DNA of 9,304 nt from IMG/VR virus record IMGVR_UViG_2671180603_000009, positions 1 to 9,304 of that record; one strand, 5' to 3'. Below the pieces are notes generated by a model. It made no database searches and was not told where the DNA came from. It saw nothing but the letters and a program-made list of their open reading frames with translations. The DNA comes from a virus. Lineage: Duplodnaviria; Heunggongvirae; Uroviricota; Caudoviricetes. Positions 437-9,304 of the stretch are shown piece by piece (the stretch's first letter is position 1; each line of letters opens with the position of its first letter). Both the position numbers and the translations under genes were made by a program.

Positions 437-469
437 GTTTTTCTCCTTAATTAAGGTTGAGCGAACCCC

Positions 470-483
470 TGCCATTGCTGGCA
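470..483 (-). other. conserved hairpin at cassette boundary (GCAA tetraloop on minus strand); second copy at 1281-1294
   Basis: TGCCA-ttgc-TGGCA on plus, i.e. UGCCA-GCAA-UGGCA on minus; identical sequence at 1281-1294 downstream of each small-peptide gene. No U-run follows, so not called a terminator. Confidence 0.35.
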
Positions 484-520
484 TATAAGAATGAAACCGG
501 ATATTTATTACGGAACTGTT

Positions 521-712
521 TTAAAGACCTGCCGGGATTTCGTTATTATCATGGTGAATAACTTTATCGACCGGATAACAGTCACCGGGAATTTTCTGTT
601 TCGCTGCGGCAGTCATACATTCTTTCATTGAGCTGTATACGCCAGTAACCATGTCAACCGGTTCACCGGAAACAAGAAAAACCGTCAGAACGAGTGCAAA
701 TACTGTATTCAT
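521..712 (-). CDS. small putative secreted peptide, 63 aa (cassette copy 1)
   Basis: ORF track 521-766; start taken at ATG 712 (MNTVFALVLTVFLVSG...), which gives a hydrophobic signal-peptide-like N-terminus and an ATGA overlap with the stop of the upstream ORF at 709; two conserved Cys in the mature part; paralog at 1332-1523. Confidence 0.55.
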   Translation of the reverse strand: MNTVFALVLTVFLVSGEPVDMVTGVYSSMKECMTAAAKQKIPGDCYPVDKVIHHDNNEIPAGL

Positions 713-897
713 TGTGCACATCCTTTTGGCATCAGACGTAAACGAGCCAGCATTGAAACAATGCATATTTTATTTAATAGCTCCCGTTCGTGTTTTCTCT
801 TGTTAATGGCATCTTCAGTAAATACAGGGTTACTGATAGTGACACCAATTTCAAAACAACCTTCAGACGTATTAACGTTTGGTAATAACGTCTCCAT
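709..897 (-). CDS. hypothetical 62-aa protein (cassette copy 1)
   Basis: ORF 709-897; ATG 897 preceded by GAGGA at 7 nt; stop overlaps start of the peptide gene (ATGA); ~90% identical paralog at 1520-1708. Confidence 0.5.
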   Translation of the reverse strand: METLLPNVNTSEGCFEIGVTISNPVFTEDAINKRKHERELLNKICIVSMLARLRLMPKGCAQ

Positions 898-907
898 TAT
901 TGCGTCC

Positions 908-1238
908 TCAACAATGAATTTTGAGTAATTGTTCCACAGTCATATTTTTAATTGCGCCCCGGTTAACAAGAGTCCATCCCTGTTTTTCCAGATAAAACCG
1001 GAAAGTCTCCAGGGGACAGACCAGTGCGCCATCAGGAACGGTTTCGGTGAATTCGACATTGCCGAATTTGTCGAAGTGAACAACCAGGGTGCGGCCATCG
1101 CCTGGAATTATTTTGTCAGTGGGTGGGGTGTTATTCTGGCGCAGTTCGGCCTCCATGCGATCGAACTCAGCAATGTAGGCTTCTTTGAATGCGGCGGNNN
1201 NNNNNNNNNNNGGCGGCGCAAATAAAGACTTTACTCAT
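908..1238 (-). CDS. standalone homolog of the C-terminal domain of the Rha-like protein, interrupted by N-run 1198-1211
   Basis: Translation 908-1197 (...AAFKEAYIAEFDRMEAELRQNNTPP...LLKIHC) is ~92% identical to the C-terminal ~95 aa of the 1719-2276 protein. A candidate start ATG at 1238 (MSKVFICAA, GAGG upstream) lies beyond the N-run; frame across the Ns cannot be verified. Confidence 0.45.
1198..1211. other. run of 14 N (assembly gap or masked bases) inside a coding region
   Basis: Literal n characters; flanked on both sides by GCGGCGG-like sequence. Confidence 0.95.
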
Positions 1239-1331: not shown

Positions 1332-1523
1332 TTAAAGACCTGCCGGGACTTCTTTATTATCCTGGTGAATGATTTTATCAACCGGATAACAGTTACCGGG
1401 AATTTTCTGTTCAGCTGCAGCAGCCACGCATTCTTTCATGGAGTTGTATACTCCGGTAACCAGTTCAGCTGGTTCGCCCGTATTAAGAATAACGGTCAGA
1501 ACGAGTGCAAATGCTGTATTCAT
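1332..1523 (-). CDS. small putative secreted peptide, 63 aa (cassette copy 2)
   Basis: Start ATG 1523 (MNTAFALVLTVILNTG...), ATGA overlap with upstream ORF; ~75% aa identity to the 521-712 product. Confidence 0.55.
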   Translation of the reverse strand: MNTAFALVLTVILNTGEPAELVTGVYNSMKECVAAAAEQKIPGNCYPVDKIIHQDNKEVPAGL

Positions 1524-1708
1524 CGCCAGCATCCTTTTTGCATCAGACGCAAACGAGCCAGCATTGAAACAATGCATATTTTATTTAATGACTCCCGTTC
1601 GTGTTTTCTCTTGTTAATGGCATCTTCAGTAAATACCGTGTTACTGATAGTGACACCAATTTCAAAACAACCTTCAGTCGTATTAACGTTTGGTAATAAC
1701 GTTTCCAT
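1520..1708 (-). CDS. hypothetical 62-aa protein (cassette copy 2)
   Basis: ATG 1708 preceded by GAGGA (overlapping the rha stop codon); paralog of 709-897. Confidence 0.5.
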   Translation of the reverse strand: METLLPNVNTTEGCFEIGVTISNTVFTEDAINKRKHERESLNKICIVSMLARLRLMQKGCWR

Positions 1709-2316: not shown

Positions 2317-2729
2317 AGGTTTTCCACGACCATAAGGGTGGTGTGACGTACAGGGGTGGAAATACCGGTCACTCGAGAACCCGGCCAGTCTTGCGACTGC
2401 CCTGCACATCCCACCATAATTTGAATGGAGCTGTGCATTACGCATAAAAAAACCGCTTCAGCGCGGCTATGCGCTCGAGTAACGTTCGGGTTTCCACGCC
2501 CGGCACCCGTTTTATAAGGTGCAGGTGCACTATAATTCCACCCGTTCTGGTTTTCAATAGCTACATTCAACATTTTCTCTTTCCTTTCATCACCGAAGTG
2601 AACTTTGTTGATGCGGTGCCTGGTGCCTCCAGGTGACGTTAACCAGTTAACAATTAACGCCGGATACAGGGAAACCCATAACCACCCGATACGGGGGAAC
2701 TAATCGCTTTTTAACTGTGCCGCGTGCGC
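2317..2729. repeat. copy 1 of a ~413-nt tandemly duplicated non-coding element immediately upstream of rha
   Basis: Aligns base for base with 2731-3143 (about 32 differences, ~92% identity); hairpin-rich; see findings. Confidence 0.9.
2446..2469 (-). terminator. terminator-like hairpin plus U7 within element copy 1
   Basis: Plus strand aaaaaaa (2446-2452) followed by ACCGC-ttcag-(c)GCGG; on the minus strand this is a GC hairpin followed by seven U. Stem is short (4-5 bp). Confidence 0.35.
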
Positions 2730-2730
2730 N

Positions 2731-3143
2731 AGGTTTTCCACGACCATAAGGGTGGTGAGACGTACAGGGGTGGAAATACCGGTCATCACGGAACCCGGCC
2801 AGTCTTGCGACTGCCCCGCACGCCCCACCATAATTTGAATGTGGCTGTGCATTACGCATAAAAAAACCGCCTGAGCGCGGTTATGCGCCGTGAATGACTT
2901 CGGGGTAGCAATCCCGGCACCCGTTTTATGAGGTGCAGGTGCACTATAATTCCACCCGTTCTGGTTTTCAATAGCTACATTCAACATTTTCTCTCACCTT
3001 TCATCACCGAAGTGAATTTTGTTGATGCGGTGCCTGGTGCCTCCAGGTGACGTTAACCAGTTAACAATTAACGCCGGATACAGGGAAACCCATAACCACC
3101 CGATACGGGGGAACTAATCGCTTTTTAACTGTGCCGCGTGCGC
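2731..3143. repeat. copy 2 of the ~413-nt tandemly duplicated element
   Basis: See 2317-2729; a single n at 2730 sits exactly at the junction of the two copies. Confidence 0.9.
2860..2883 (-). terminator. terminator-like hairpin plus U7 within element copy 2
   Basis: Plus strand aaaaaaa (2860-2866) then ACCGC-ctgag-(c)GCGGT; minus strand reads as a hairpin followed by U7. Confidence 0.35.
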
Positions 3144-3177
3144 TGAGCCGCATTCACCGCATCACAAAATTCACTTT

Positions 3178-3218
3178 AAAAAGGGCGGACATCAGCCAGC
3201 AATGAAACTGATGCCGCC
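3178..3218 (-). terminator. candidate Rho-independent terminator on the minus strand
   Basis: GGCGGACATCAG (3184-3195) pairs with CTGATGCCGCC (3208-3218), 11 bp with one bulge and a 12-nt loop; on the minus strand the hairpin is followed by CCCUUUUUAAA (plus a-run 3178-3182). Confidence 0.4.
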
Positions 3219-3418
3219 AAAGGTACCAATCAACATGGAGTGTTGTGGCGTGGTTGTCACTTAAGCGTATGGTCAACCTGACAACCCGGTGTCCTCAACG
3301 GGGAAGGAATAACTCCGCCATACTTACCGCCGCGTCATTTCGCGTTGTGTGCCTGCTTTTAACCACGTCAGGCGAGGTGGTATCCTTCTTATCCCGAATA
3401 ACCAAGAAGGAAATCTAT

Positions 3419-3619
3419 ATGACTAAAGAAGAATTTGTCTCTTATATTTTTGATAAAACGGTTGAAATGTATGCCGCTACTTACGGGTCCTGTAATCCTC
3501 TGAATAAACCAGAGGGAAAAGATGATTTCGACAAAATTTACCGCTTCTTGGAGGACCGCTATATCAAAAGCTTAGAGGACGCAGGGATCAAATCCCCAGT
3601 GAAGTCACCATTGTCCTGA
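3419..3619 (+). CDS. hypothetical small protein (66 aa), the only plus-strand gene in the left arm
   Basis: ATG 3419 preceded by AAGGAA at ~7 nt; the ORF track start at 3245 uses an alternative start with no RBS and is rejected; 3' end overlaps the convergent gene 3588-3965 by 32 bp. Confidence 0.5.
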   Translation: MTKEEFVSYIFDKTVEMYAATYGSCNPLNKPEGKDDFDKIYRFLEDRYIKSLEDAGIKSPVKSPLS

Positions 3620-3965
3620 GAACTTGCAGAACGTCATGATCATAACTTCCATCCAAACCGCGACGGCGAATTGCTTCTCGTATTACCGGAAGCAGTTCGC
3701 TGGAAATCTCGGTGCATATTTCACCTGATAATACGCTTGGCTCAAGTGAGAATATTGGTGAACTTACGGTCTTGGTCTCGACAGTTTCAGAGTCAGTGCC
3801 AACATTATAAAGCTCAACGAAAGCGGTCTTGATTTTCCGGGCCAGATCTTTTGCTGGCTCGCTTGCAATATCTTTCCCGATTTCTCGCAGCACAGAATGC
3901 AATGTATGAGCTGCTGTTTTCTGTACATCAGACGGTAAATCTTTAAATTCCATCGTCAGCCTCAT
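3588..3965 (-). CDS. hypothetical protein (125 aa; 121 aa if started at ATG 3953)
   Basis: ATG 3965 overlaps the stop of the upstream gene (TGATG coupling); alternative ATG at 3953 has GAGG 6 nt upstream. No family recognised. Confidence 0.6.
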   Translation of the reverse strand: MRLTMEFKDLPSDVQKTAAHTLHSVLREIGKDIASEPAKDLARKIKTAFVELYNVGTDSETVETKTVSSPIFSLEPSVLSGEICTEISSELLPVIREAIRRRGLDGSYDHDVLQVLRTMVTSLGI

Positions 3966-4117
3966 CAGTCAGTGTTTCTGGCTAACCAGCAACGCGCGCC
4001 AGATTCGGTTTTAAACGTTTTGCTTTTGGTATACGTCATGGCGGTAAACGTTCCATCCTGGTTAGGGAACACGCCGCACACCAGAGATTCGTTGTTGCCA
4101 AGATCGATAGTATCCAT
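3965..4117 (-). CDS. hypothetical small protein (50 aa; 68 aa if started at 4171)
   Basis: ORF track 3965-4171; ATG 4117 (MDTIDLG...) has GAGGT 5 nt upstream whereas ATG 4171 has no obvious RBS. First gene downstream of the operator-controlled leftward promoter. Confidence 0.45.
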   Translation of the reverse strand: MDTIDLGNNESLVCGVFPNQDGTFTAMTYTKSKTFKTESGARCWLARNTD

Positions 4118-4296
4118 GCTGACCTCATTTCCCCTTAACGCCGGGGTGGCGGAACAAAAAACCTGCTGCATAGTTAAAGATTGAACCCTGCCGTCATGTT
4201 CTTACGCCTCGGGCTGGCTACTTAACCCCTGACCACTGTCTGGTAACTCGAAGTATTGCCCTGCATTCTGTGGGGCGGGGTGGGTTGACGCCTGAA

Positions 4297-4338
4297 AAAA
4301 TAGCATCATTATTTTTTGATGTAAATAGCATCGCTATT
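4297..4338 (-). promoter_or_regulatory. leftward early promoter (PL-like) overlapped by two repressor-operator-like inverted repeats
   Basis: Minus strand reads TTTACA (plus 4320-4325), 17-bp spacer, TATTTT (plus 4297-4302). Inverted repeats AATAG-N5-(C/T)TATT at 4299-4313 and 4324-4338, centres 25 bp apart, overlap the -10 and -35; same motif recurs at 5434-5473. Confidence 0.5.
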
Positions 4339-4350
4339 GTTTTTGTTGGG

Positions 4351-4377
4351 GCAAGAAAAAACCACCCTAAGGTGGTT
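4351..4377 (-). terminator. Rho-independent terminator downstream of the toxin gene
   Basis: AACCACC-ctaa-GGTGGTT (4360-4377) preceded on plus by an A-run (4356-4361); on the minus strand this is a 7-bp stem followed by UUUUUUC, 17 nt after the stop at 4394. Confidence 0.6.
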
Positions 4378-4393
4378 CTGTCGGCGGGAATAA

Positions 4394-4684
4394 TTAACTG
4401 TTTTTGCCTGGATACTGTCTTCGAGAATGCACAATATTTACTACTTCTATGCTTGATGCTGTTACTCGGTAAAGGATGATGTAGTTAGGATGAGTTACAA
4501 TTTCACGAAGACCAAGAACTCGCTCGCTTGGAGGATACAGGTAAGGATGCTCTGTGAGCGGCAAAACGGATGTTTCAATTCGAATTTTCATTCTGCGTGC
4601 TGCCGCGGGATTTTCTTTAGCTATGTAGGCTACGATCTGGCGCAAATCATCACGAGCAGATGGTAGCCATAAAACGGGTAACAT
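4394..4684 (-). CDS. parE: ParE/RelE-superfamily toxin (96 aa)
   Basis: Translation MLPVLWLPSARDDLRQIVAYI...HPYLYPP...LREIVTHPNYIILYRV...VVNIVHSRRQYP matches my recollection of ParE-type toxins; start overlaps the stop of the upstream antitoxin gene (TAATG). Confidence 0.8.
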   Translation of the reverse strand: MLPVLWLPSARDDLRQIVAYIAKENPAAARRMKIRIETSVLPLTEHPYLYPPSERVLGLREIVTHPNYIILYRVTASSIEVVNIVHSRRQYPGKNS

Positions 4685-4878
4685 TATTCACCTCTGTGAG
4701 TTGCAGCAGCAATTTGGGCAATAATTTGTTCCATTTCCGCCATTACCTCATCATGCGGAATCGCCGGGCGGGGATCCGCGAGGCTTGCTGCTACTTTGGC
4801 CCGCAGCCATTCGTTGTAACTATTTTCTTGCTCAACTGTCTCAAATTCTGAAACCATTGGGGAAAGGACTGTACTCAT
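4684..4878 (-). CDS. small antitoxin (64 aa), likely PaaA/ParD-like partner of the ParE toxin
   Basis: Small acidic protein directly upstream of and translationally coupled to the toxin gene; AGGAG-like RBS about 12 nt upstream of ATG 4878. Resemblance to the PaaA2 antitoxin of E. coli O157 is from memory and unverified. Confidence 0.65.
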   Translation of the reverse strand: MSTVLSPMVSEFETVEQENSYNEWLRAKVAASLADPRPAIPHDEVMAEMEQIIAQIAAATHRGE

Positions 4879-4897
4879 TTTACATATCTCCTCTGAT

Positions 4898-5398
4898 TTA
4901 GGCGCGACGGCCTTTTTGTGCAGCTAACCACCGCGCAACCGTACGATCCATTGATTCTTTTTTATCTTTCATCTCCTGAAGCATGTGTTCTTGATCTTCT
5001 TTCGGAAAAGCTCTGAACGTATGGATTAAATCTCGTTCCATCGGCTCTACGGCAAACGGTAGTTCATCCTCTGTTTGTTCTGTGTCTGCTGGTAATGCGA
5101 CTATGTTATCTTGCTGTGGTTCTCGACAATACATCCTTGCAATTTGCAGCAAATCTACCATGTCTGGCCTGATTGACTCAGGGGGAACTTTCAGTAAGCC
5201 AGCAAACTTTAGAACAGCCTCAAGGTTTAGTGGGGTTTGACCATTTAGGTAGTGACTTACCGCCCCTTGTGTTGAAAACCCCATAATTTCCGCCGCACGT
5301 TCCTGAGTCAATCCCAACTGAGATTTCTTTGCCATCCAGATTTCTTTCAGTCTTCTGGCGGCGTTGAGGTCGGTGTCTGACAATGATTTTCTTTTCAT
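4898..5398 (-). CDS. HTH (XRE-family) transcriptional repressor, RacR/PaaR-like, 166 aa
   Basis: ORF track 4898-5428 (GTG start); ATG 5398 (MKRKSLSDT...) preferred. HTH-like segment LGLTQERAAEIMGFSTQGAVSHYLNGQ; acidic C-terminus with no recognisable S24 peptidase (LexA-like) motif; divergent from the Cro-like gene and 19 nt upstream of the antitoxin gene. Confidence 0.75.
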   Translation of the reverse strand: MKRKSLSDTDLNAARRLKEIWMAKKSQLGLTQERAAEIMGFSTQGAVSHYLNGQTPLNLEAVLKFAGLLKVPPESIRPDMVDLLQIARMYCREPQQDNIVALPADTEQTEDELPFAVEPMERDLIHTFRAFPKEDQEHMLQEMKDKKESMDRTVARWLAAQKGRRA

Positions 5399-5405
5399 AC
5401 ATCCA

Positions 5406-5475
5406 ATTCTAATAAGATTGCTAATCACTTTGAAATAGCATCACTATTTACTTTTAAAAATAACAGTGCTATTAA
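5406..5475. promoter_or_regulatory. divergent promoter/operator region (OR-like)
   Basis: Inverted repeats AATAG-catca-CTATT (5434-5448) and AATAA-cagtg-CTATT (5459-5473), centres 25 bp apart, plus weaker AATAA-gattg-CTAAT (5411-5425). Plus-strand TTTACT (5447-5452), 17 bp, TATTAA (5470-5475) upstream of the Cro-like gene; minus-strand TTTCAA/18 bp/TAGAAT (plus 5406-5411) just upstream of the repressor ATG. Confidence 0.5.
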
Positions 5476-5509
5476 TTATGCATTGGTAACACATCACATA
5501 GGGCGGATT

Positions 5510-5773
5510 ATGAATCTTGGAGAATATTTGCATCATTTTCATATAACCCAGAGTTCATTTGCTGAGATTGTTGGCGCATCCCAAGGGATGGTCAGCCACG
5601 TTATAACGGGGCGTGCAAAACTTACAGGAGAAAAAATATTACGTTGGTGTGAAGCAACGGGATGGGTGGTGACCCCACATGAGATTGACAGTAAAACCTA
5701 CCCCAACCCAACTGACGGCTTGCCTGCTGAGTTTCAGGCTAACACACAACCATCGGCGGGGGTTGATTCATGA
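5510..5773 (+). CDS. Cro-like / YdaS-family HTH protein (87 aa)
   Basis: ATG 5510 (MNLGEYL...); ORF track start 5483 is a TTG. HTH-like TQSSFAEIVGASQGMVSHVITGRAK; first rightward gene divergent from the repressor; stop overlaps next gene (ATGA at 5770-5773). Confidence 0.7.
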   Translation: MNLGEYLHHFHITQSSFAEIVGASQGMVSHVITGRAKLTGEKILRWCEATGWVVTPHEIDSKTYPNPTDGLPAEFQANTQPSAGVDS

Positions 5774-6195
5774 AAATCAAGCATGAACACATCCGCATGG
5801 CGATGAAAGCCTGGGCGCATCCGGACGGTGAAAAAGTTCCGGCAGCTGAAATAACCAGGGTTTATTTCGAACTGGGAATGACGTTTCCGGTTCTGCATAA
5901 CGACAGCAAGCACAACACGCTTTATCTCAACACCCAAAAGATTTTCCGTTGGCTGGATAAAGACACCCCTGACGCTGTTGAAAAAATTCAGGCGTTGTTA
6001 CCTGCGATCGAAAGGGCAATGCCACCTCCGCTGGTGGCTCGAATGCGCAGCCACAGTTCAGCTTATTTTCGGGAACTGGTGGAGACGCATGAACGACTGG
6101 TGAGAGACGCTGATGATTTTGTCGCAGTGGCAATCGCCGGTTTCAATCAGATGAACCGTGGTGGCCCGGCAGGAAATGCTGTGGCAGTACATTGA
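5770..6195 (+). CDS. YdaT-like protein (141 aa)
   Basis: N-terminus MKIKHEHI... and position directly after the Cro-like gene match my recollection of Rac prophage YdaT-family proteins; translationally coupled to the upstream gene. Confidence 0.7.
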   Translation: MKIKHEHIRMAMKAWAHPDGEKVPAAEITRVYFELGMTFPVLHNDSKHNTLYLNTQKIFRWLDKDTPDAVEKIQALLPAIERAMPPPLVARMRSHSSAYFRELVETHERLVRDADDFVAVAIAGFNQMNRGGPAGNAVAVH

Positions 6196-6266
6196 CTGAC
6201 AATAGCCATATCGAATCGCTCCCGGCAACTCGTGAGTAAAAAGATTCGGTATCAGAAGAGGTGAGT

Positions 6267-7331
6267 ATGGCTAACGCCTGGCTCAGATTATGGCATGACA
6301 TGCCAAATGACCCTAAGTGGCGAACAATTGCCAGGGTGTCAGGGCAGCCAATTGCAACAGTGATGGCAGTGTATATCCACCTCCTGGTGAGCGCGTCACG
6401 AAATGTCACGCGAGGTCACATTGATGTCACGACAGAAGATTTGGCAAGTGCGCTCGACGTGACAGAAGAGGTAATTGATTCAATTTTGCAGACGATGCAG
6501 GGGCGGGTACTTGATGGTGATTTAATCACTGGATGGGAAAAACGCCAGGTGCTTAAAGAGGACAACGGCAATATTTCGCAAACCGCAAAATCTCCTGCAG
6601 AGCGCAAGAGGGCGCAGCGAGAGAGGGAAAGAAAGCGGGAACAAAATGGCGATTGTCACGGCGCGTCACGAAATGTCACGCACATGTCACGACGAGTCAC
6701 GACAGATACAGATAAAGATACAGATAAAGAAGATCAAAACACTATGGTCCATGGCGTAAAAAACGCCACGAACCAGGCAGGGGATGTTCAGACCGTCAAT
6801 CCTGGTCAGCCAGCAGGCTCGACACCGGAAGCCGATTCAGCGTATGCGCTGAAAGCCGATTCGGGCGCTGTGCAGCAGGTGATGACCGCAAGGCCGGAGC
6901 AATCACTCCAACTGCAGCAGCCTGAAGCCGATTCCGCCATTCAGCGGGAAGCCGATCGGGTAGCCCCGGAAAACACCGGGCAGCCTGTGGGACGAGTGGA
7001 TTATCCGGATGTGTTCGAACAGGTCTGGCGGGAATACCCGTTGCGTGCCGGGGCAAACCCGAAGAAATCCGCATTCAGTGCCTGGAAGGCCAGATTGCGC
7101 GAGGGGGTGCCACCAGAGACCATGCTGGATGGTGTGAGGCGTTACGCGAGATACCTGGCGGCGACCGGGAAAGCGGGAACGGAATTTGTTCAGCGAGCGA
7201 CGACGTTTTTTGGGCCGGACCGGAATTTTGAAAACCCCTGGTTGCTCCCGGTAAGCGGCACGAACAACCAGCGTTGTGTGAATCATATTTCTGAACCGGA
7301 TACCGAAATTCCGCCGGGATTCAGGGGGTGA
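6267..7331 (+). CDS. phage replication initiator / replisome organizer (O-like, YdaU-type), 354 aa
   Basis: ATG 6267 preceded by AGAGGTGA; N-terminus MANAWLRLWHDMPNDPKWRTIA... is typical of prophage replication proteins as I recall them; iteron-like repeats lie inside the gene; followed 6 nt later by a DnaC-like gene. Confidence 0.8.
   Translation: MANAWLRLWHDMPNDPKWRTIARVSGQPIATVMAVYIHLLVSASRNVTRGHIDVTTEDLASALDVTEEVIDSILQTMQGRVLDGDLITGWEKRQVLKEDNGNISQTAKSPAERKRAQRERERKREQNGDCHGASRNVTHMSRRVTTDTDKDTDKEDQNTMVHGVKNATNQAGDVQTVNPGQPAGSTPEADSAYALKADSGAVQQVMTARPEQSLQLQQPEADSAIQREADRVAPENTGQPVGRVDYPDVFEQVWREYPLRAGANPKKSAFSAWKARLREGVPPETMLDGVRRYARYLAATGKAGTEFVQRATTFFGPDRNFENPWLLPVSGTNNQRCVNHISEPDTEIPPGFRG
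6388..6430. repeat. iteron cluster 1 (four GTCAC(G/A) repeats at ~10-bp spacing)
   Basis: GTCACG at 6392, 6402, 6423 and GTCACA at 6412; the 21-mer gcgcgtcacgaaatgtcacgc (6388-6408) is repeated exactly at 6661-6681. Confidence 0.6.
6654..6728. repeat. iteron cluster 2 (five GTCACG repeats) plus AT-rich 12-bp tandem repeat; candidate replication origin
   Basis: GTCACG at 6655, 6665, 6675, 6686, 6696 (spacing 10/10/11/10), then gatacagataaa x2 (6705-6728). Arrangement resembles phage lambda, whose origin lies inside gene O. Confidence 0.55.
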
Positions 7332-7337
7332 TGTGGC

Positions 7338-8084
7338 ATGAAAAACATTGCGGCAGCCGGGGTTCTTGAACGTATTCACAGACTTGCACCACAGGGGGCG
7401 GTTCCACCGTACCGGACGGTGGAGGAGTGGCGGGAATGGCAACTTGCTGAAGGACGAAAACGCAGCGAGGAGATTAACCGCCAGAATCGCCAGTTGCGGG
7501 TGGAAAAAATCCTGAATCGTTCGGGCATCCAGCCTCTGCACAGCAAATGCTCGTTTGCGAATTATCAGGTGCAGAACGACGGGCAAAAATACGCGCTGAG
7601 CCAGGCCAAATCCATAGCTGACGAACTGATGACCGGGTGCACGAATTTTGTGTTCAGCGGTAAAACCGGCACCGGGAAAAATCACCTTGCAGCGGCGATG
7701 GGTAACTGGCTGATGGCGAAGGGGCGCAGCGTGATTATCGTCACCGTGTCTGATGTCATGAGCGTGTTGCATGACAGCTACGACAACGGCAAATCCGGTG
7801 AAAAATTTTTACAGGAGCTTTGCGGGGTTGATTTGCTGGTCCTGGATGAAATAGGCATTCAGCGGGAGACGAAAAACGAGCAGGTGGTATTGCACCAGAT
7901 AATTGATCGCCGGACAGCATCACTGTGCAGTGTCGGGATGTTAACAAACCTGAATCATGCCGCAATGAGCACGCTTCTTGGTGAGAGGATTATGGACCGC
8001 ATGACCATGAACGGTTGTCGGTGGGTGACGTTTAACTGGGATAGCTGGCGTTCAAATGTCAGCTTTCCGGGAGTTGTGAAGTAA
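7338..8084 (+). CDS. DnaC/IstB-like AAA+ helicase loader (248 aa)
   Basis: Walker A GKTGTGKNHLAAA and Walker B LLVLDEIG visible in the translation; start 6 nt after the initiator stop. Confidence 0.85.
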   Translation: MKNIAAAGVLERIHRLAPQGAVPPYRTVEEWREWQLAEGRKRSEEINRQNRQLRVEKILNRSGIQPLHSKCSFANYQVQNDGQKYALSQAKSIADELMTGCTNFVFSGKTGTGKNHLAAAMGNWLMAKGRSVIIVTVSDVMSVLHDSYDNGKSGEKFLQELCGVDLLVLDEIGIQRETKNEQVVLHQIIDRRTASLCSVGMLTNLNHAAMSTLLGERIMDRMTMNGCRWVTFNWDSWRSNVSFPGVVK

Positions 8085-8105
8085 TTTTTGTTGGAGGATG
8101 TTTTA

Positions 8106-8831
8106 ATGGAAACTGTATTTGACGCACTGAAAGCACTGAAAAGAGCCTCTTCACATGTGGTGGCGTCCCGCCTTGGAATCAGCCGTGAAGATGCGGTCAA
8201 CGAACTGTGGAAACTGAAGCGCCGTGGTGAAGCGGATAACAAGGGTTCGATGTGGTGGCTGATTCAGGCTGGTGAAAGTGAACCAGTGTCACCGGTACCG
8301 AAAGTGACAGCGCAAATGCTGACTGAGGCGATTGAACAACATGGCCCACAAACGGCGGATGAGCTGGCACTGATGTTCGGGATTACCTCCCGCCGGGCGA
8401 ATTCATCGCTGGCCATGGCAATCAGCAAAGGGCGTCTGATTCGCGTGAATCAGGGCGGTAAATTTCGGTACTGCATACCGGGCGCTGATTTACCGGCAGA
8501 GCCGAAAGCCGCATCCATAGCGGAAACGGATGGTAAAGTCTTTCCTCAGCCAGCAGGTGTTGCGTTACCGGTACAGGAAGCTGCAACACAGGAAGAAATT
8601 AAAACAGAAACTGTGGCGGACATTGTGCAGTCGTTGCCATCGTTCACCGAAACGCAAGCGGATGACCTGGTTTTACCATCGCTGCATATGGCAAACCGCG
8701 AACTGCGTCGGGCGAAAAGTCATGTCCAGAAGTGGGAGCGTGTCTGCGCCGCGTTGCGGGAGCTGAACAAGCACCGGGATATTGTTCGACAGATTGTCGA
8801 TTCCTCCGGTCGTATTGTGTCGGAAAAGTGA
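8106..8831 (+). CDS. hypothetical prophage protein with two winged-helix-like repeats (241 aa)
   Basis: ATG 8106 preceded by GGAGGA; ORF track start 8088 is TTG. Two similar N-terminal segments ([10 protein letters not shown]...; [10 protein letters not shown]...), acidic linker, coiled-coil-like C-terminus. Family not verified. Confidence 0.6.
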
Positions 8832-8846
8832 TTGCCGGGGGCGCTT

Positions 8847-9269
8847 ATGGCAAAAGTATTTACACAGGAAGAGCGGGAAAAAATTAAGGGGCAGGTTGTT
8901 GAACTCGTACGCCAGAGTGGGCGCGAGACGTTACGACAACTGGAAGCTAAAACCGGGGCGACAAGATATTTAATAAGCGTTCTCGCCAGAGAGCTGGTTG
9001 CCAGTGGGGATGTATACAACTCTGGCTACGGGTTATTCCCGTCTGAACAGGCTCGTAAGGACTGGCAAAACGCCCGCAAAAAACTCTCGAGGGCAAAGCT
9101 GAAGAAACCATCTGTGGTTGATCCGGACCTTATCTGGTCATTACCAGACGGAGAAATACGCCGCTACGACAGACATCAGAACATAATCTGTCGCGAGTGC
9201 CGGAAGAGTGAAGTTATGCAGCGTGTACCGGCTTTCTATCAGGGTGATTTTCAGGAGGCGGTACTGTGA
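8847..9269 (+). CDS. hypothetical protein (140 aa)
   Basis: ATG 8847 preceded by GGGGG at ~6 nt; ORF track start 8832 is TTG; basic, possibly DNA-binding; no family recognised. Confidence 0.55.
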   Translation: MAKVFTQEEREKIKGQVVELVRQSGRETLRQLEAKTGATRYLISVLARELVASGDVYNSGYGLFPSEQARKDWQNARKKLSRAKLKKPSVVDPDLIWSLPDGEIRRYDRHQNIICRECRKSEVMQRVPAFYQGDFQEAVL

Positions 9270-9304
9270 GTGAAATTAGCTATCAGGCTTCAATTACCGC
9301 TGGC

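What the first reader, a model, noticed from the sequence alone, without database searches (positions are those of the whole stretch)
4394..6195. Repressor is flanked by two potentially toxic modules (ParE on its own operon, YdaS/YdaT-like under the promoter it would repress)
In the Rac prophage, RacR is reported to be essential because it represses the toxic ydaS-ydaT genes. Here the homologous arrangement (Cro-like 5510-5773, YdaT-like 5770-6195) is combined with a ParE toxin cotranscribed with the repressor. If both are functional, loss of the repressor or of the prophage would release two independent toxic activities, a layered stabilisation arrangement.
Basis: inference. Interest (0 to 1): 0.45.

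Follow-up and report, generated by a model that had tools for sequence, protein, structure and literature searches.

The report
Prophage immunity switch carrying PaaA-ParE cassette
This is the lysis/lysogeny control region of a lambda-like prophage that carries an already described three-gene ParE toxin-antitoxin cassette behind its repressor; the neighbouring "YdaS/YdaT" genes are the phage's Cro- and CII-type regulators, not a second toxin module, so the arrangement is an ordinary variant of a known system.

Summary
However, a PaaA2-family antitoxin gene (4684-4878) lies between the repressor (4898-5398) and parE (4394-4684), and the finding does not mention it. The three genes form a paaR-paaA-parE-type operon, the three-component toxin-antitoxin (TA) system characterised in E. 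coli O157:H7 prophages CP-933P and CP-933M. The divergent genes 5510-5773 and 5770-6195 match the YdaS (Cro analogue) and YdaT (CII analogue) positions of CP-933P. The window's YdaT is 77% identical to CP-933P YdaT, which was tested and found non-toxic and unable to activate rcsA. It is only 33% identical to the toxic Rac YdaT. RacR and Rac YdaS have no detectable relative here. In CP-933P, adding ydaS-ydaT to the TA locus did not improve plasmid stabilisation, so the "layered stabilisation" idea has been tested on the closest homologue and was not supported. What differs here is the immunity type. The repressor has a lambda-CI-like N-terminal domain (about 40% identity) joined to the conserved PaaR/DicA C-terminal domain, with its own ATAGC-N3-GCTAT operators at OR and OL. 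This type occurs in 72 of 5,426 complete E. coli genomes. Any toxicity on repressor loss more plausibly comes from dicB and prophage replication. Interest is low.

The parts
4394..4684 (-). parE: ParE-family toxin, 96 aa, last gene of the repressor operon
   Evidence: Pfam PF05016 E=1.8e-17. PDB 5cw7 ParE2 E=6.7e-37 over residues 1-93. 67% identical to ParE2 (L005), 83% to the other O157:H7 copy (L003), 100% to L001.
   Evidence: Pfam PF21217 PaaA2 E=3e-23. NCBIfam NF050103 E=3.3e-27. PDB 3zbe PaaA2 E=1.4e-23. 36 invariant columns across 5 loci. Its stop overlaps the parE start at 4684.
4898..5398 (-). Immunity repressor (PaaR/CI analogue), 166 aa: lambda-CI-like N-terminal HTH domain plus PaaR/DicA-type C-terminal domain; no S24 peptidase domain
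   Evidence: Pfam HTH_3 only. Residues 2-81 match the lambda CI N-terminal domain, PDB 1lmb, E=2.9e-9. The C-terminal ~55 aa are conserved with the PaaR1- and PaaR2-type repressors and with DicA (NCBIfam E=8.8e-8; BLASTP 29% identity, E=2e-6). RefSeq homologues start at the same ATG.
5406..5434 (-). Predicted PRM: TTCAAA-17-TAGAAT. The -10 ends 7 nt before the ATG at 5398, which implies a leaderless repressor mRNA
   Evidence: Promoter scan, 9/12. Both hexamers are conserved in L001, L002 and L004. A leaderless paaR2 was shown experimentally in CP-933P. For this window it is an inference.
5433..5474 (.). OR: two palindromic operators, ATAGCATCACTAT (5435-5447) and ATAACAGTGCTAT (5460-5472), centres 25 bp apart
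   Evidence: The same motif and spacing occur at OL. The motif is conserved in loci with the same repressor type (L001, L002, L004) and replaced by unrelated repeats in loci with PaaR1- or PaaR2-type repressors.
5447..5475 (+). Predicted PR: TTTACT-17-(TG)cTATTAA, overlapped by both OR operators; drives ydaS-ydaT and the replication genes
   Evidence: Read directly from the sequence. It mirrors the scanned PL. It was not listed by the scanner, so this is an inference.
5510..5773 (+). ydaS-position gene: Cro analogue, 87 aa HTH protein
   Evidence: Pfam HTH_3 E=4.9e-4, below the cut-off. PHROG 35 'transcriptional repressor' E=8e-17. 83% identical in same-immunity loci, 29% to CP-933P-type YdaS. 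No hit to Rac YdaS.
5763..5780 (.). YdaT box TTGATTcatgaaAATCAA, overlapping the ydaT start codon
   Evidence: Exact match to the footprinted CP-933P YdaT operator 5'-TTGATTN6AATCAA-3'. Present in all 8 aligned loci, exact in 6 and with one substitution in L001 and L004, whatever the immunity type.
5770..6195 (+). ydaT: CII-analogue transcriptional activator (POU-like HTH, tetramer)
   Evidence: PDB 3c4r E=3.9e-79 and 8bt1 (CP-933P YdaT) E=3.1e-70. PHROG 163 'CII-like transcriptional activator' E=3e-40. 77% identical to CP-933P YdaT, 33% to Rac YdaT.
4355..4382 (-). Intrinsic terminator-like hairpin plus U-run, directly after parE
   Evidence: RNA fold -15.1 kcal/mol, z=-2.49. Inverted repeat I19. 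The stem is conserved in L001, L002 and L004.
4297..4337 (-). Predicted PL (TTTACA-17-TGnTATTTT) with OL operators ATAGCATCATTAT (4300-4312) and ATAGCATCGCTAT (4325-4337); reads towards ydfA and dicB
   Evidence: Promoter scan. Operator search. The 40-nt inverted repeat I1 pairs 4299-4338 with 5434-5473.

Best explanation
Region 4297-6195 is the immunity (lysis/lysogeny) region of a lambdoid prophage of the CP-933P/Qin backbone type. A non-cleavable CI-analogue repressor is transcribed leftward from a PRM-like promoter, probably as a leaderless mRNA. It binds paired palindromic operators (ATAGC-N3-GCTAT) at OR and OL. There it shuts off PR (ydaS/cro analogue, ydaT/cII analogue, then the O-like and DnaC-like replication genes) and PL (ydfA and onward to dicB). 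YdaS competes for the same operators, as Cro does. YdaT binds the TTGATT-N6-AATCAA box at the ydaS/ydaT junction and activates a leftward PRE-like promoter that feeds the repressor operon. A self-contained paaA-parE toxin-antitoxin pair sits in the repressor operon, between the repressor gene and its terminator. It has no DNA-binding antitoxin and depends on the phage switch for transcription. It acts as an addiction cassette: if the DNA segment is lost, labile PaaA is degraded and ParE, which induces SOS and associates with the nucleoid, kills or arrests the cell. This stabilises the immunity region. The sequence here shows the gene identities, the operator and promoter geometry, the YdaT box, the terminator and the mosaic structure. 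The regulatory logic and the addiction function are inferred from experiments on the CP-933P homologue.
For: Family and structure matches support all five proteins. Gene order and spacing are the same as in annotated E. coli loci and as in the true paaR2-paaA2-parE2/ydaS/ydaT locus (L005 and phage Evi). The OR and OL operator pairs are mirror images with 25-bp spacing and overlap the predicted PR and PL. They co-vary with the repressor's N-terminal domain across loci. The PRM -10 lies 7 nt from the ATG. An exact YdaT box is present, and the box is conserved across heteroimmune loci. A terminator follows parE. The mosaic identity profile shows paaA-parE and the repressor 3' end conserved (60-83%), the repressor N-terminal domain, OR and ydaS unrelated (24-46%), and ydaT conserved again (87-88%). 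PMC8630535 establishes the CI, Cro and CII roles, the leaderless paaR2, PL/OL, bistability and mini-F stabilisation. PMC9986795 footprints the YdaT operator. paaA-parE occurs as a bare two-gene module in 36 loci from other Proteobacteria, with no PaaR C-domain, YdaS or YdaT nearby. Phage Tritos and Qin lack the pair on the same backbone. Together these fit a cassette that was inserted.
Against: Nothing was tested on this allele. The repressor's N-terminal domain, the operators and YdaS are unrelated to those of CP-933P, so operator occupancy order, PRM activation and bistability are extrapolated. The operator motif count alone is not significant (6 found against 2.4 expected; 9 of 200 shuffles reach 6), and neither is the promoter count (4 against 3.3). 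Support comes from position, symmetry and co-variation instead. Only two clear operators per side were found, against three or four in lambda and CP-933P. The ParE2 target is still unknown according to the paper. PADLOC gave no defence-system hit, which says little either way.
Confidence: 0.85

Rival explanations
1. One reading: the repressor holds down two independent toxic activities. One is ParE, in its own operon. The other is a YdaS/YdaT toxin module under PR. Losing the repressor or the prophage would release both, giving layered stabilisation.
For: Rac YdaT is lethal when expressed, and racR could be deleted only in a ydaST-deleted background (PMC11879457). Pfam names the family 'YdaT_toxin'. 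Prolonged overexpression of CP-933P YdaS and PaaR2 causes growth defects. The window's YdaS is a different protein from the tested CP-933P YdaS (29% identity), so it is untested.
Against: The window's YdaT belongs to the CP-933P clade (77% identity) and not the Rac clade (33%). CP-933P YdaT showed no toxicity and cannot activate rcsA, the route of Rac YdaT lethality. paaR2-null constructs and ydaST-on cells were viable, with no extra SOS. ydaST plus the TA locus stabilised mini-F no better than the TA locus alone. ParE is paired with its antitoxin, so loss of the repressor alone should not free it. No RacR or Rac YdaS homologue is present.
Confidence: 0.1
2. Repressor loss is toxic, but through other repressor-controlled genes. 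These are the FtsZ-ring inhibitor DicB downstream of PL and unscheduled replication from the O-like/DnaC-like genes downstream of PR. The TA independently guards against deletion. This is compatible with the best explanation and replaces the 'second module'.
For: dicB copies at 709-897 and 1520-1708 are 97% identical to K-12 DicB. They lie on the PL-transcribed strand with ydfA (DUF1391) first, the same order as dicA-ydfA-ydfB-ydfC-dicF-dicB in Qin. A replication initiator (PHROG 3729, E=3e-250) and a DnaC-like loader follow ydaT. From my own knowledge, not tested here: DicA represses the dicB operon and its inactivation blocks division, and derepressed defective lambda prophages kill by in-situ replication.
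Against: Whether transcripts from PL reach dicB, about 2.6-3.6 kb away and past the C4/isrK/Rha genes, is unknown. No DicF was detected at Rfam gathering score. The left part of the window looks mis-scaffolded. No experiment was done.
Confidence: 0.45
3. The paaA-parE pair serves mainly as an anti-phage (abortive infection or exclusion) cargo gene of the prophage, like rexAB in the lambda cI operon, and not as an addiction module.
For: It occupies the position in the repressor operon that rexAB occupies in lambda. It is expressed in the lysogenic state. TA systems are often defence genes (my own knowledge).
Against: There is no PADLOC match. Published data show plasmid stabilisation, and I know of no phage-defence test. 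No ParE2 activation was seen under the tested conditions.
Confidence: 0.15

Closest known systems
paaR2-paaA2-parE2 / ydaS-ydaT immunity region of cryptic prophage CP-933P (Sp12), E. coli O157:H7 (Jurenas et al. 2021, PMC8630535; YdaT structure PMC9986795)
   Same: The gene order and orientation are the same, with a three-gene operon of regulator, DNA-binding-less PaaA antitoxin and ParE toxin. The repressor C-terminal domain is conserved. A PRM-like promoter abuts the start codon. OR and OL operator sets sit at PR and PL. YdaT is 77% identical and the YdaT box is identical. The same ydfA...dicB and O-like flanks are present.
   Different: The repressor is 166 aa against 123 aa. Its N-terminal domain is unrelated to PaaR2 and recognisably lambda-CI-like. 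The operators are ATAGC-N3-GCTAT in place of the GTTTAGTAA-type repeats. The intergenic region is 111 bp against 97 bp. YdaS is only 29% identical, and PaaA and ParE only 67% identical. It is therefore a heteroimmune allele.
Second O157:H7 copy (133-aa repressor; I take it to be the paaR1-paaA1-parE1 system of CP-933M from the paper's mention of a homologue there, and the assignment was not verified)
   Same: PaaA is 78% and ParE 83% identical, closer than to the '2' system. The C-terminal repressor domain and the YdaT (81%) are shared.
   Different: The repressor N-terminal domain, the operators (ACAATAAAAAACTGT-type repeats) and YdaS are unrelated.
Rac prophage racR-ydaS-ydaT (E. coli K-12)
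   Same: The layout is the same: a divergent repressor / Cro-like / CII-like arrangement with a YdaT box over the ydaT start codon. YdaF/YdfA (86% identical) and YdaV/DnaC-like (80%) flank it. YdaT belongs to the same family.
   Different: RacR and Rac YdaS have no detectable similarity to the window's proteins, and YdaT is only 33% identical. Rac has no TA behind the repressor. The toxicity of Rac YdaT works through rcsA activation, which CP-933P-type YdaT lacks.
Qin prophage dicA-dicC / ydfA-ydfB-ydfC-dicF-dicB
   Same: The repressor C-terminal domain is homologous to DicA. The leftward gene set ydfA...dicB is the same. The repressor lacks a peptidase domain.
   Different: In Qin, dicA is followed directly by ydfA. 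Here about 0.5 kb carrying paaA-parE and a terminator is interposed. The N-terminal domain differs.
Bacteriophage lambda cI-rexAB / cro-cII switch
   Same: The repressor N-terminal domain is about 40% identical to the lambda CI N-terminal domain (32 of 80 aligned residues, counted by hand). Other shared features are 17-bp-class palindromic operators in pairs at OR and OL, a likely leaderless repressor mRNA, a CII-type activator site, and accessory genes riding in the repressor operon.
   Different: There is no S24 autopeptidase C-terminal domain, so no RecA-mediated cleavage is expected. The CII analogue is a YdaT/POU-type protein. The cargo is a TA pair, not rexAB. Two clear operators per side, against three.

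Membership tests
paaR-paaA-parE three-component type II TA (Hallez 2010 / Jurenas 2021) | ParE-family toxin as the last gene | tested here: met
   Pfam PF05016 64 bits against a cut-off of 23. ParE2 structure 5cw7 E=6.7e-37, aligned over residues 1-93.
paaR-paaA-parE three-component type II TA (Hallez 2010 / Jurenas 2021) | PaaA2-family antitoxin without a DNA-binding domain, immediately upstream of and overlapping the toxin gene | tested here: met
   Pfam PF21217 81.9 bits against a cut-off of 27. NCBIfam NF050103 94.3 against 50. PDB 3zbe. No other domain in its 64 aa. The stop/start overlap is at 4684.
paaR-paaA-parE three-component type II TA (Hallez 2010 / Jurenas 2021) | Third gene upstream in the same operon encoding an HTH regulator of the PaaR type | tested here: inconclusive
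   An HTH regulator lies 19 nt upstream on the same strand, and its C-terminal ~55 aa align with PaaR1- and PaaR2-type proteins (25 invariant columns). The N-terminal DNA-binding domain is not PaaR-like and resembles lambda CI. It is a domain-level homologue, 30% identical overall to PaaR2.
paaR-paaA-parE three-component type II TA (Hallez 2010 / Jurenas 2021) | Toxicity of ParE, neutralisation by PaaA, post-segregational killing | not testable with these tools
   Known only for the CP-933P system.
Lambdoid immunity switch (CI/Cro/CII logic) | Divergent PRM/PR sharing repeated operators, with a matching operator set at a distant PL | tested here: met
   Operators at 5435-5447 and 5460-5472, and at 4300-4312 and 4325-4337, with equal 25-bp spacing. 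They overlap the predicted promoters and co-vary with the repressor type across loci. This is sequence-level only; binding was not tested.
Lambdoid immunity switch (CI/Cro/CII logic) | CII-type activator with its binding site between the cro and cII analogues | tested here: met
   Exact TTGATT-N6-AATCAA at 5763-5780, the footprinted site for CP-933P YdaT. Present in all 8 aligned loci, exact in 6 and with one substitution in L001 and L004.
Lambdoid immunity switch (CI/Cro/CII logic) | RecA-cleavable repressor (S24 peptidase C-terminal domain) | tested here: not met
   Pfam finds only HTH_3/HTH_31. The C-terminus is DicA/PaaR-like. The same is true of PaaR2.
Rac RacR/YdaS/YdaT module (repressor essential because ydaS/ydaT expression is toxic) | RacR-homologous repressor and Rac-type YdaS | tested here: not met
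   BLASTP of the window's repressor and YdaS against RacR and Rac YdaS gave nothing better than E=0.39.
Rac RacR/YdaS/YdaT module (repressor essential because ydaS/ydaT expression is toxic) | Rac-type YdaT (activates host rcsA, lethal on expression) | tested here: inconclusive
   It is in the same Pfam family but only 33% identical. It is 77% identical to CP-933P YdaT, which is reported non-toxic and unable to activate rcsA. The phenotype of this allele was not tested.
YdaS/YdaT as a type II toxin-antitoxin pair (database label) | A toxin neutralised by the adjacent antitoxin protein | not testable with these tools
   The published work on both Rac and CP-933P rejects this label. Structure and PHROG matches classify YdaT as a CII-like DNA-binding activator.

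The most novel reading that the evidence does not exclude
The locus may be a natural chimera. The immunity-specificity block (repressor N-terminal domain, OR/OL operators and the cro analogue) has been swapped by recombination inside the repressor gene, while the repressor C-terminal domain and the paaA-parE pair stayed linked. If the TA kills recombinants that lose it, it would force breakpoints into the repressor linker. That would explain why at least three unrelated DNA-binding domains share one C-terminal domain next to the cassette. A stronger version is that the conserved C-terminal domain talks directly to PaaA-ParE and couples the TA state to the lysogeny switch. Separately, the untested YdaS of this immunity type could be toxic.
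Probability: 0.2. Interest if true: 0.35.

Novelty: new member of a known kind. Interest (0 to 1): 0.15.

Why it matters
The value is mainly in annotation and in correcting a misleading name. The Pfam label 'YdaT_toxin' and the Rac precedent invite the reading that a second toxin is present. The closest experimentally studied homologue shows a CII-like activator that is not toxic. The locus does add a third immunity type to the paaR-paaA-parE family. It shows that the TA pair and the repressor's C-terminal domain stay together while the DNA-binding specificity is exchanged. It also shows that the same TA pair exists as a free two-gene module in distant Proteobacteria. These points fit the published idea that the cassette was inserted into, and now stabilises, lambdoid immunity regions. 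None of them opens a new question.

Tried and rejected
1. A PADLOC scan of the five proteins gave no defence-system assignment, only a marginal RmrA hit for YdaS (E=6e-4).
2. An Rfam gathering scan found no DicF or other RNA in 4180-6300. The only hits were C4 and isrK further left.
3. The operator pattern count and the promoter scan are not significant as bare counts. I relied on position, symmetry and cross-locus co-variation instead.
4. The terminator scanner missed the hairpin after parE. Folding confirmed it.
5. The GTG start at 5428 for the repressor (176 aa) was rejected. It lies upstream of the predicted PRM, and RefSeq homologues use the ATG at 5398.
6. The genome-contig scan with PaaA returned no enterobacterial locus, because the collection holds one genome per species. 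It could not be used to survey repressor types, but it showed the bare two-gene modules.
7. A megablast of 3150-9304 found no complete E. coli genome matching the whole stretch at high identity (best 86-87% coverage at about 89%), so the source strain was not identified.
8. The idea that the repressor C-terminal domain exists only next to the TA was rejected. DicA has it and has no TA.
9. I looked for a PRE -10 element leftward of the YdaT box and found nothing convincing. PRE is left as inferred from CP-933P.
Full report
**Observation.** ORF listing and family scans confirm five genes in 4394-6195.
- On the minus strand there are three. A 166-aa HTH repressor runs 4898-5398, with its best start at the ATG at 5398, as in the RefSeq annotation of homologous loci. 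A 64-aa PaaA2-family antitoxin runs 4684-4878 (Pfam PF21217 E=3e-23; NCBIfam RelB-family antitoxin E=3e-27; PDB 3zbe E=1.4e-23). A 96-aa ParE toxin runs 4394-4684 (PF05016 E=1.8e-17; PDB 5cw7 ParE2 E=6.7e-37).
- On the plus strand there are two. An 87-aa HTH protein runs 5510-5773. A YdaT-family protein runs 5770-6195 (PDB 3c4r E=4e-79; 8bt1, the CP-933P YdaT, E=3e-70).

**Anatomy of the control region.**
- Between the repressor ATG (5398) and the ydaS ATG (5510) lie two 13-bp palindromes. They are ATAGCATCACTAT (5435-5447) and ATAACAGTGCTAT (5460-5472), with centres 25 bp apart.
- The same motif at the same spacing recurs just beyond parE, as ATAGCATCATTAT (4300-4312) and ATAGCATCGCTAT (4325-4337).
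- The bare count is not significant (6 found against 2.4 expected). However, the two pairs form a 40-nt inverted repeat (I1). Each pair overlaps a promoter-like site.
- The leftward PL is TTTACA-17-TGnTATTTT at 4325->4297. Its mirror image, TTTACT-17-TGcTATTAA at 5447-5475, I read as PR (inference).
- A PRM-like TTCAAA-17-TAGAAT (5434->5406) ends 7 nt before the repressor ATG. That predicts a leaderless mRNA, as was shown experimentally for paaR2 and as is known for lambda cI.
- A hairpin with a U-run follows parE (4382->4355, -15.1 kcal/mol, z=-2.5).
- An exact TTGATTcatgaaAATCAA sits at 5763-5780 over the ydaT start codon. This is the footprinted high-affinity operator of CP-933P YdaT. The box is present in all eight loci I aligned (exact in six, one substitution in L001 and L004), whatever their immunity type.

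**Identity.** The literature search leads directly to the paaR2-paaA2-parE2 three-component TA of prophage CP-933P (PMC8630535). In that system:
- PaaR2 is the CI analogue, YdaS the Cro analogue and YdaT the CII analogue.
- PaaR2 and YdaS compete for operators in the 97-bp intergenic region and at a PL/OL site.
- YdaT activates a PRE-like promoter.
- The locus is bistable.
- The TA stabilises a mini-F plasmid.

I fetched the true PaaR2-type locus (L005, E. coli O111; also present in phage Evi), a second O157:H7 type with a 133-aa repressor (L003), and three loci of the window's own type (L001, L002, L004).
- Against the PaaR2-type locus, the window's PaaA and ParE are each 67% identical, YdaT is 77%, the repressor is 30% and YdaS is 29%.
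- Against L003, the figures are PaaA 78%, ParE 83%, YdaT 81%, repressor 42% and YdaS 29%.

The repressor alignment shows a shared C-terminal domain of about 55 aa and unrelated N-terminal domains. The window's N-terminal domain matches the lambda CI N-terminal domain (E=2.9e-9, about 40% identity by my hand count). The C-terminal domain is also homologous to DicA. No S24 peptidase domain is present.

Operator sequences follow the repressor type. They are ATAGC-N3-GCTAT in L001, L002 and L004, and different repeats in L003 and L005.

A 100-nt identity profile makes the mosaic explicit. Against the other two types, paaA-parE is mostly 76-83% identical to the window (two parE bins drop to 37% and 55% against L005), and the repressor 3' end is 60-68% identical. 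The stretch from about 5050 to 5650 (N-terminal domain, OR, ydaS) is at random level, 24-46%. Identity returns to 87-88% from the YdaT box onward. This is therefore a third, heteroimmune allele of a known architecture.

In complete E. coli genomes, the TA pair is found in 842 of 5,426, and this repressor type is found full-length in 72.

**The 'second toxic module'.** The comparison with Rac holds only loosely. RacR and Rac YdaS have no detectable similarity to the window's proteins, and YdaT is 33% identical. Rac YdaT is indeed lethal, and racR could be deleted only when ydaST was also deleted (PMC11879457). However, that lethality runs through direct activation of host rcsA, and the same paper reports that the CP-933P homologue cannot activate rcsA.

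Jurenas et al. found no toxicity for CP-933P YdaT and only growth defects on prolonged overexpression of YdaS and PaaR2. Cells with a paaR2 stop mutant, and cells in the ydaST-on state, were viable with no excess SOS induction. Stabilisation of mini-F was equal with and without ydaST.

The layered-stabilisation idea therefore fails on the nearest tested relative. ParE would be released by loss of the genes, through antitoxin decay, and not by loss of the repressor. The caveat is that nothing was tested on this allele, and its YdaS is a different protein.

**Where repressor-dependent toxicity more plausibly lies.** Leftward of PL the window carries ydfA (DUF1391) and, further on, dicB, which is 97% identical to K-12 DicB. 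The order is the same as dicA-ydfA-...-dicB in Qin. Rightward of ydaT lie a replication initiator and a DnaC-like loader. Derepression of a division inhibitor and of in-situ replication are the classical causes of lethality in defective lambdoid lysogens. That statement rests on my own knowledge and was not tested here.

**The TA as a cassette.** Qin and phage Tritos have the same backbone without the TA. A scan of species-representative genomes found 36 paaA-like loci in Bartonella, Acetobacteraceae, Sphingomonadales and others, with 45-80% PaaA identity. Nearly all have parE directly downstream. None has an ORF with the PaaR C-terminal domain, YdaS or YdaT within 3 kb. This agrees with the published suggestion that paaA-parE was inserted into the immunity operon.

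**Verdict.** This is a new member (a new immunity allele) of a known kind, and the interest is low.

Noticed in passing
window 451-1197 vs 1262-2008; 2317-2729 vs 2731-3143; N runs at 1198-1211 and 2730: Two pairs of adjacent segments are 91% and 93% identical, and each pair is separated by Ns. This looks like two alleles of one prophage segment placed in tandem by a scaffolder. It produces duplicate dicB, C4 and isrK copies and a truncated second Rha-like ORF.
   Followed up: partly
window 2334-2421 and 2748-2835 (C4); 2446-2522 and 2860-2936 (isrK); 1719-2573 (Rha/Ant-like), all minus strand: Rfam C4 antisense RNA and isrK hits (E from 1e-11 to 5e-15) overlap or lie just upstream of the 5' end of a Rha/anti-repressor-family gene (PHROG 995 and 373). 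This could be a P1/Gifsy-style antirepressor circuit, and so a possible induction route for a repressor that lacks a RecA-cleavable domain.
   Followed up: no
window 709-897 and 1520-1708 (minus): The dicB cell-division inhibitor gene is 97% identical to K-12 DicB. It lies on the PL-transcribed strand and is a more credible repressor-controlled toxic function than YdaS/YdaT. No DicF RNA was detected at Rfam gathering score.
   Followed up: partly
L007-L042 (genome-contig loci): PaaA-like/ParE pairs with up to 80% PaaA identity are present in Bartonella (many species), Gluconobacter/Acetobacter/Komagataeibacter, Sphingomonadales and some Betaproteobacteria. They occur as stand-alone two-gene modules without a PaaR-type regulator. 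How these pairs are autoregulated without a DNA-binding antitoxin is unclear. Some Bartonella loci have a divergent XRE-type gene about 0.5 kb upstream.
   Followed up: partly
L043 (phage Evi LR597642.1) 2659-2940 (minus): The deposited phage record annotates paaR2 and paaA2 equivalents but leaves the parE2 ORF unannotated. The ORF is intact and identical to ParE2 over the toxin domain.
   Followed up: yes
window 4276-4306 vs 5754-5784: A 31-nt direct repeat (74% identity) links the region just outside OL (GGGTTGACGCCTGAAAAAATAGCAT) to the YdaT box region (GGGTTGATTCATGAAAATCAAGCAT) (D3). It may be a degenerate YdaT half-site near PL, or it may be chance.
   Followed up: no
window 5413-5425: ATAAGATTGCTAA has 3 mismatches to the operator consensus and is centred 22 bp left of the 5435-5447 operator, inside the PRM spacer. 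It could be a weak OR3-like site for negative autoregulation. It is below any statistical support.
   Followed up: no
window 3150-9304: No complete E. coli genome matches the whole stretch. The best matches have 86-87% coverage at about 89% identity. The immunity block is 99-100% identical at protein level to strain RMDEC465, and 99% identical at DNA level to FDAARGOS_944. The prophage is a mosaic and the source strain remains unidentified.
   Followed up: partly
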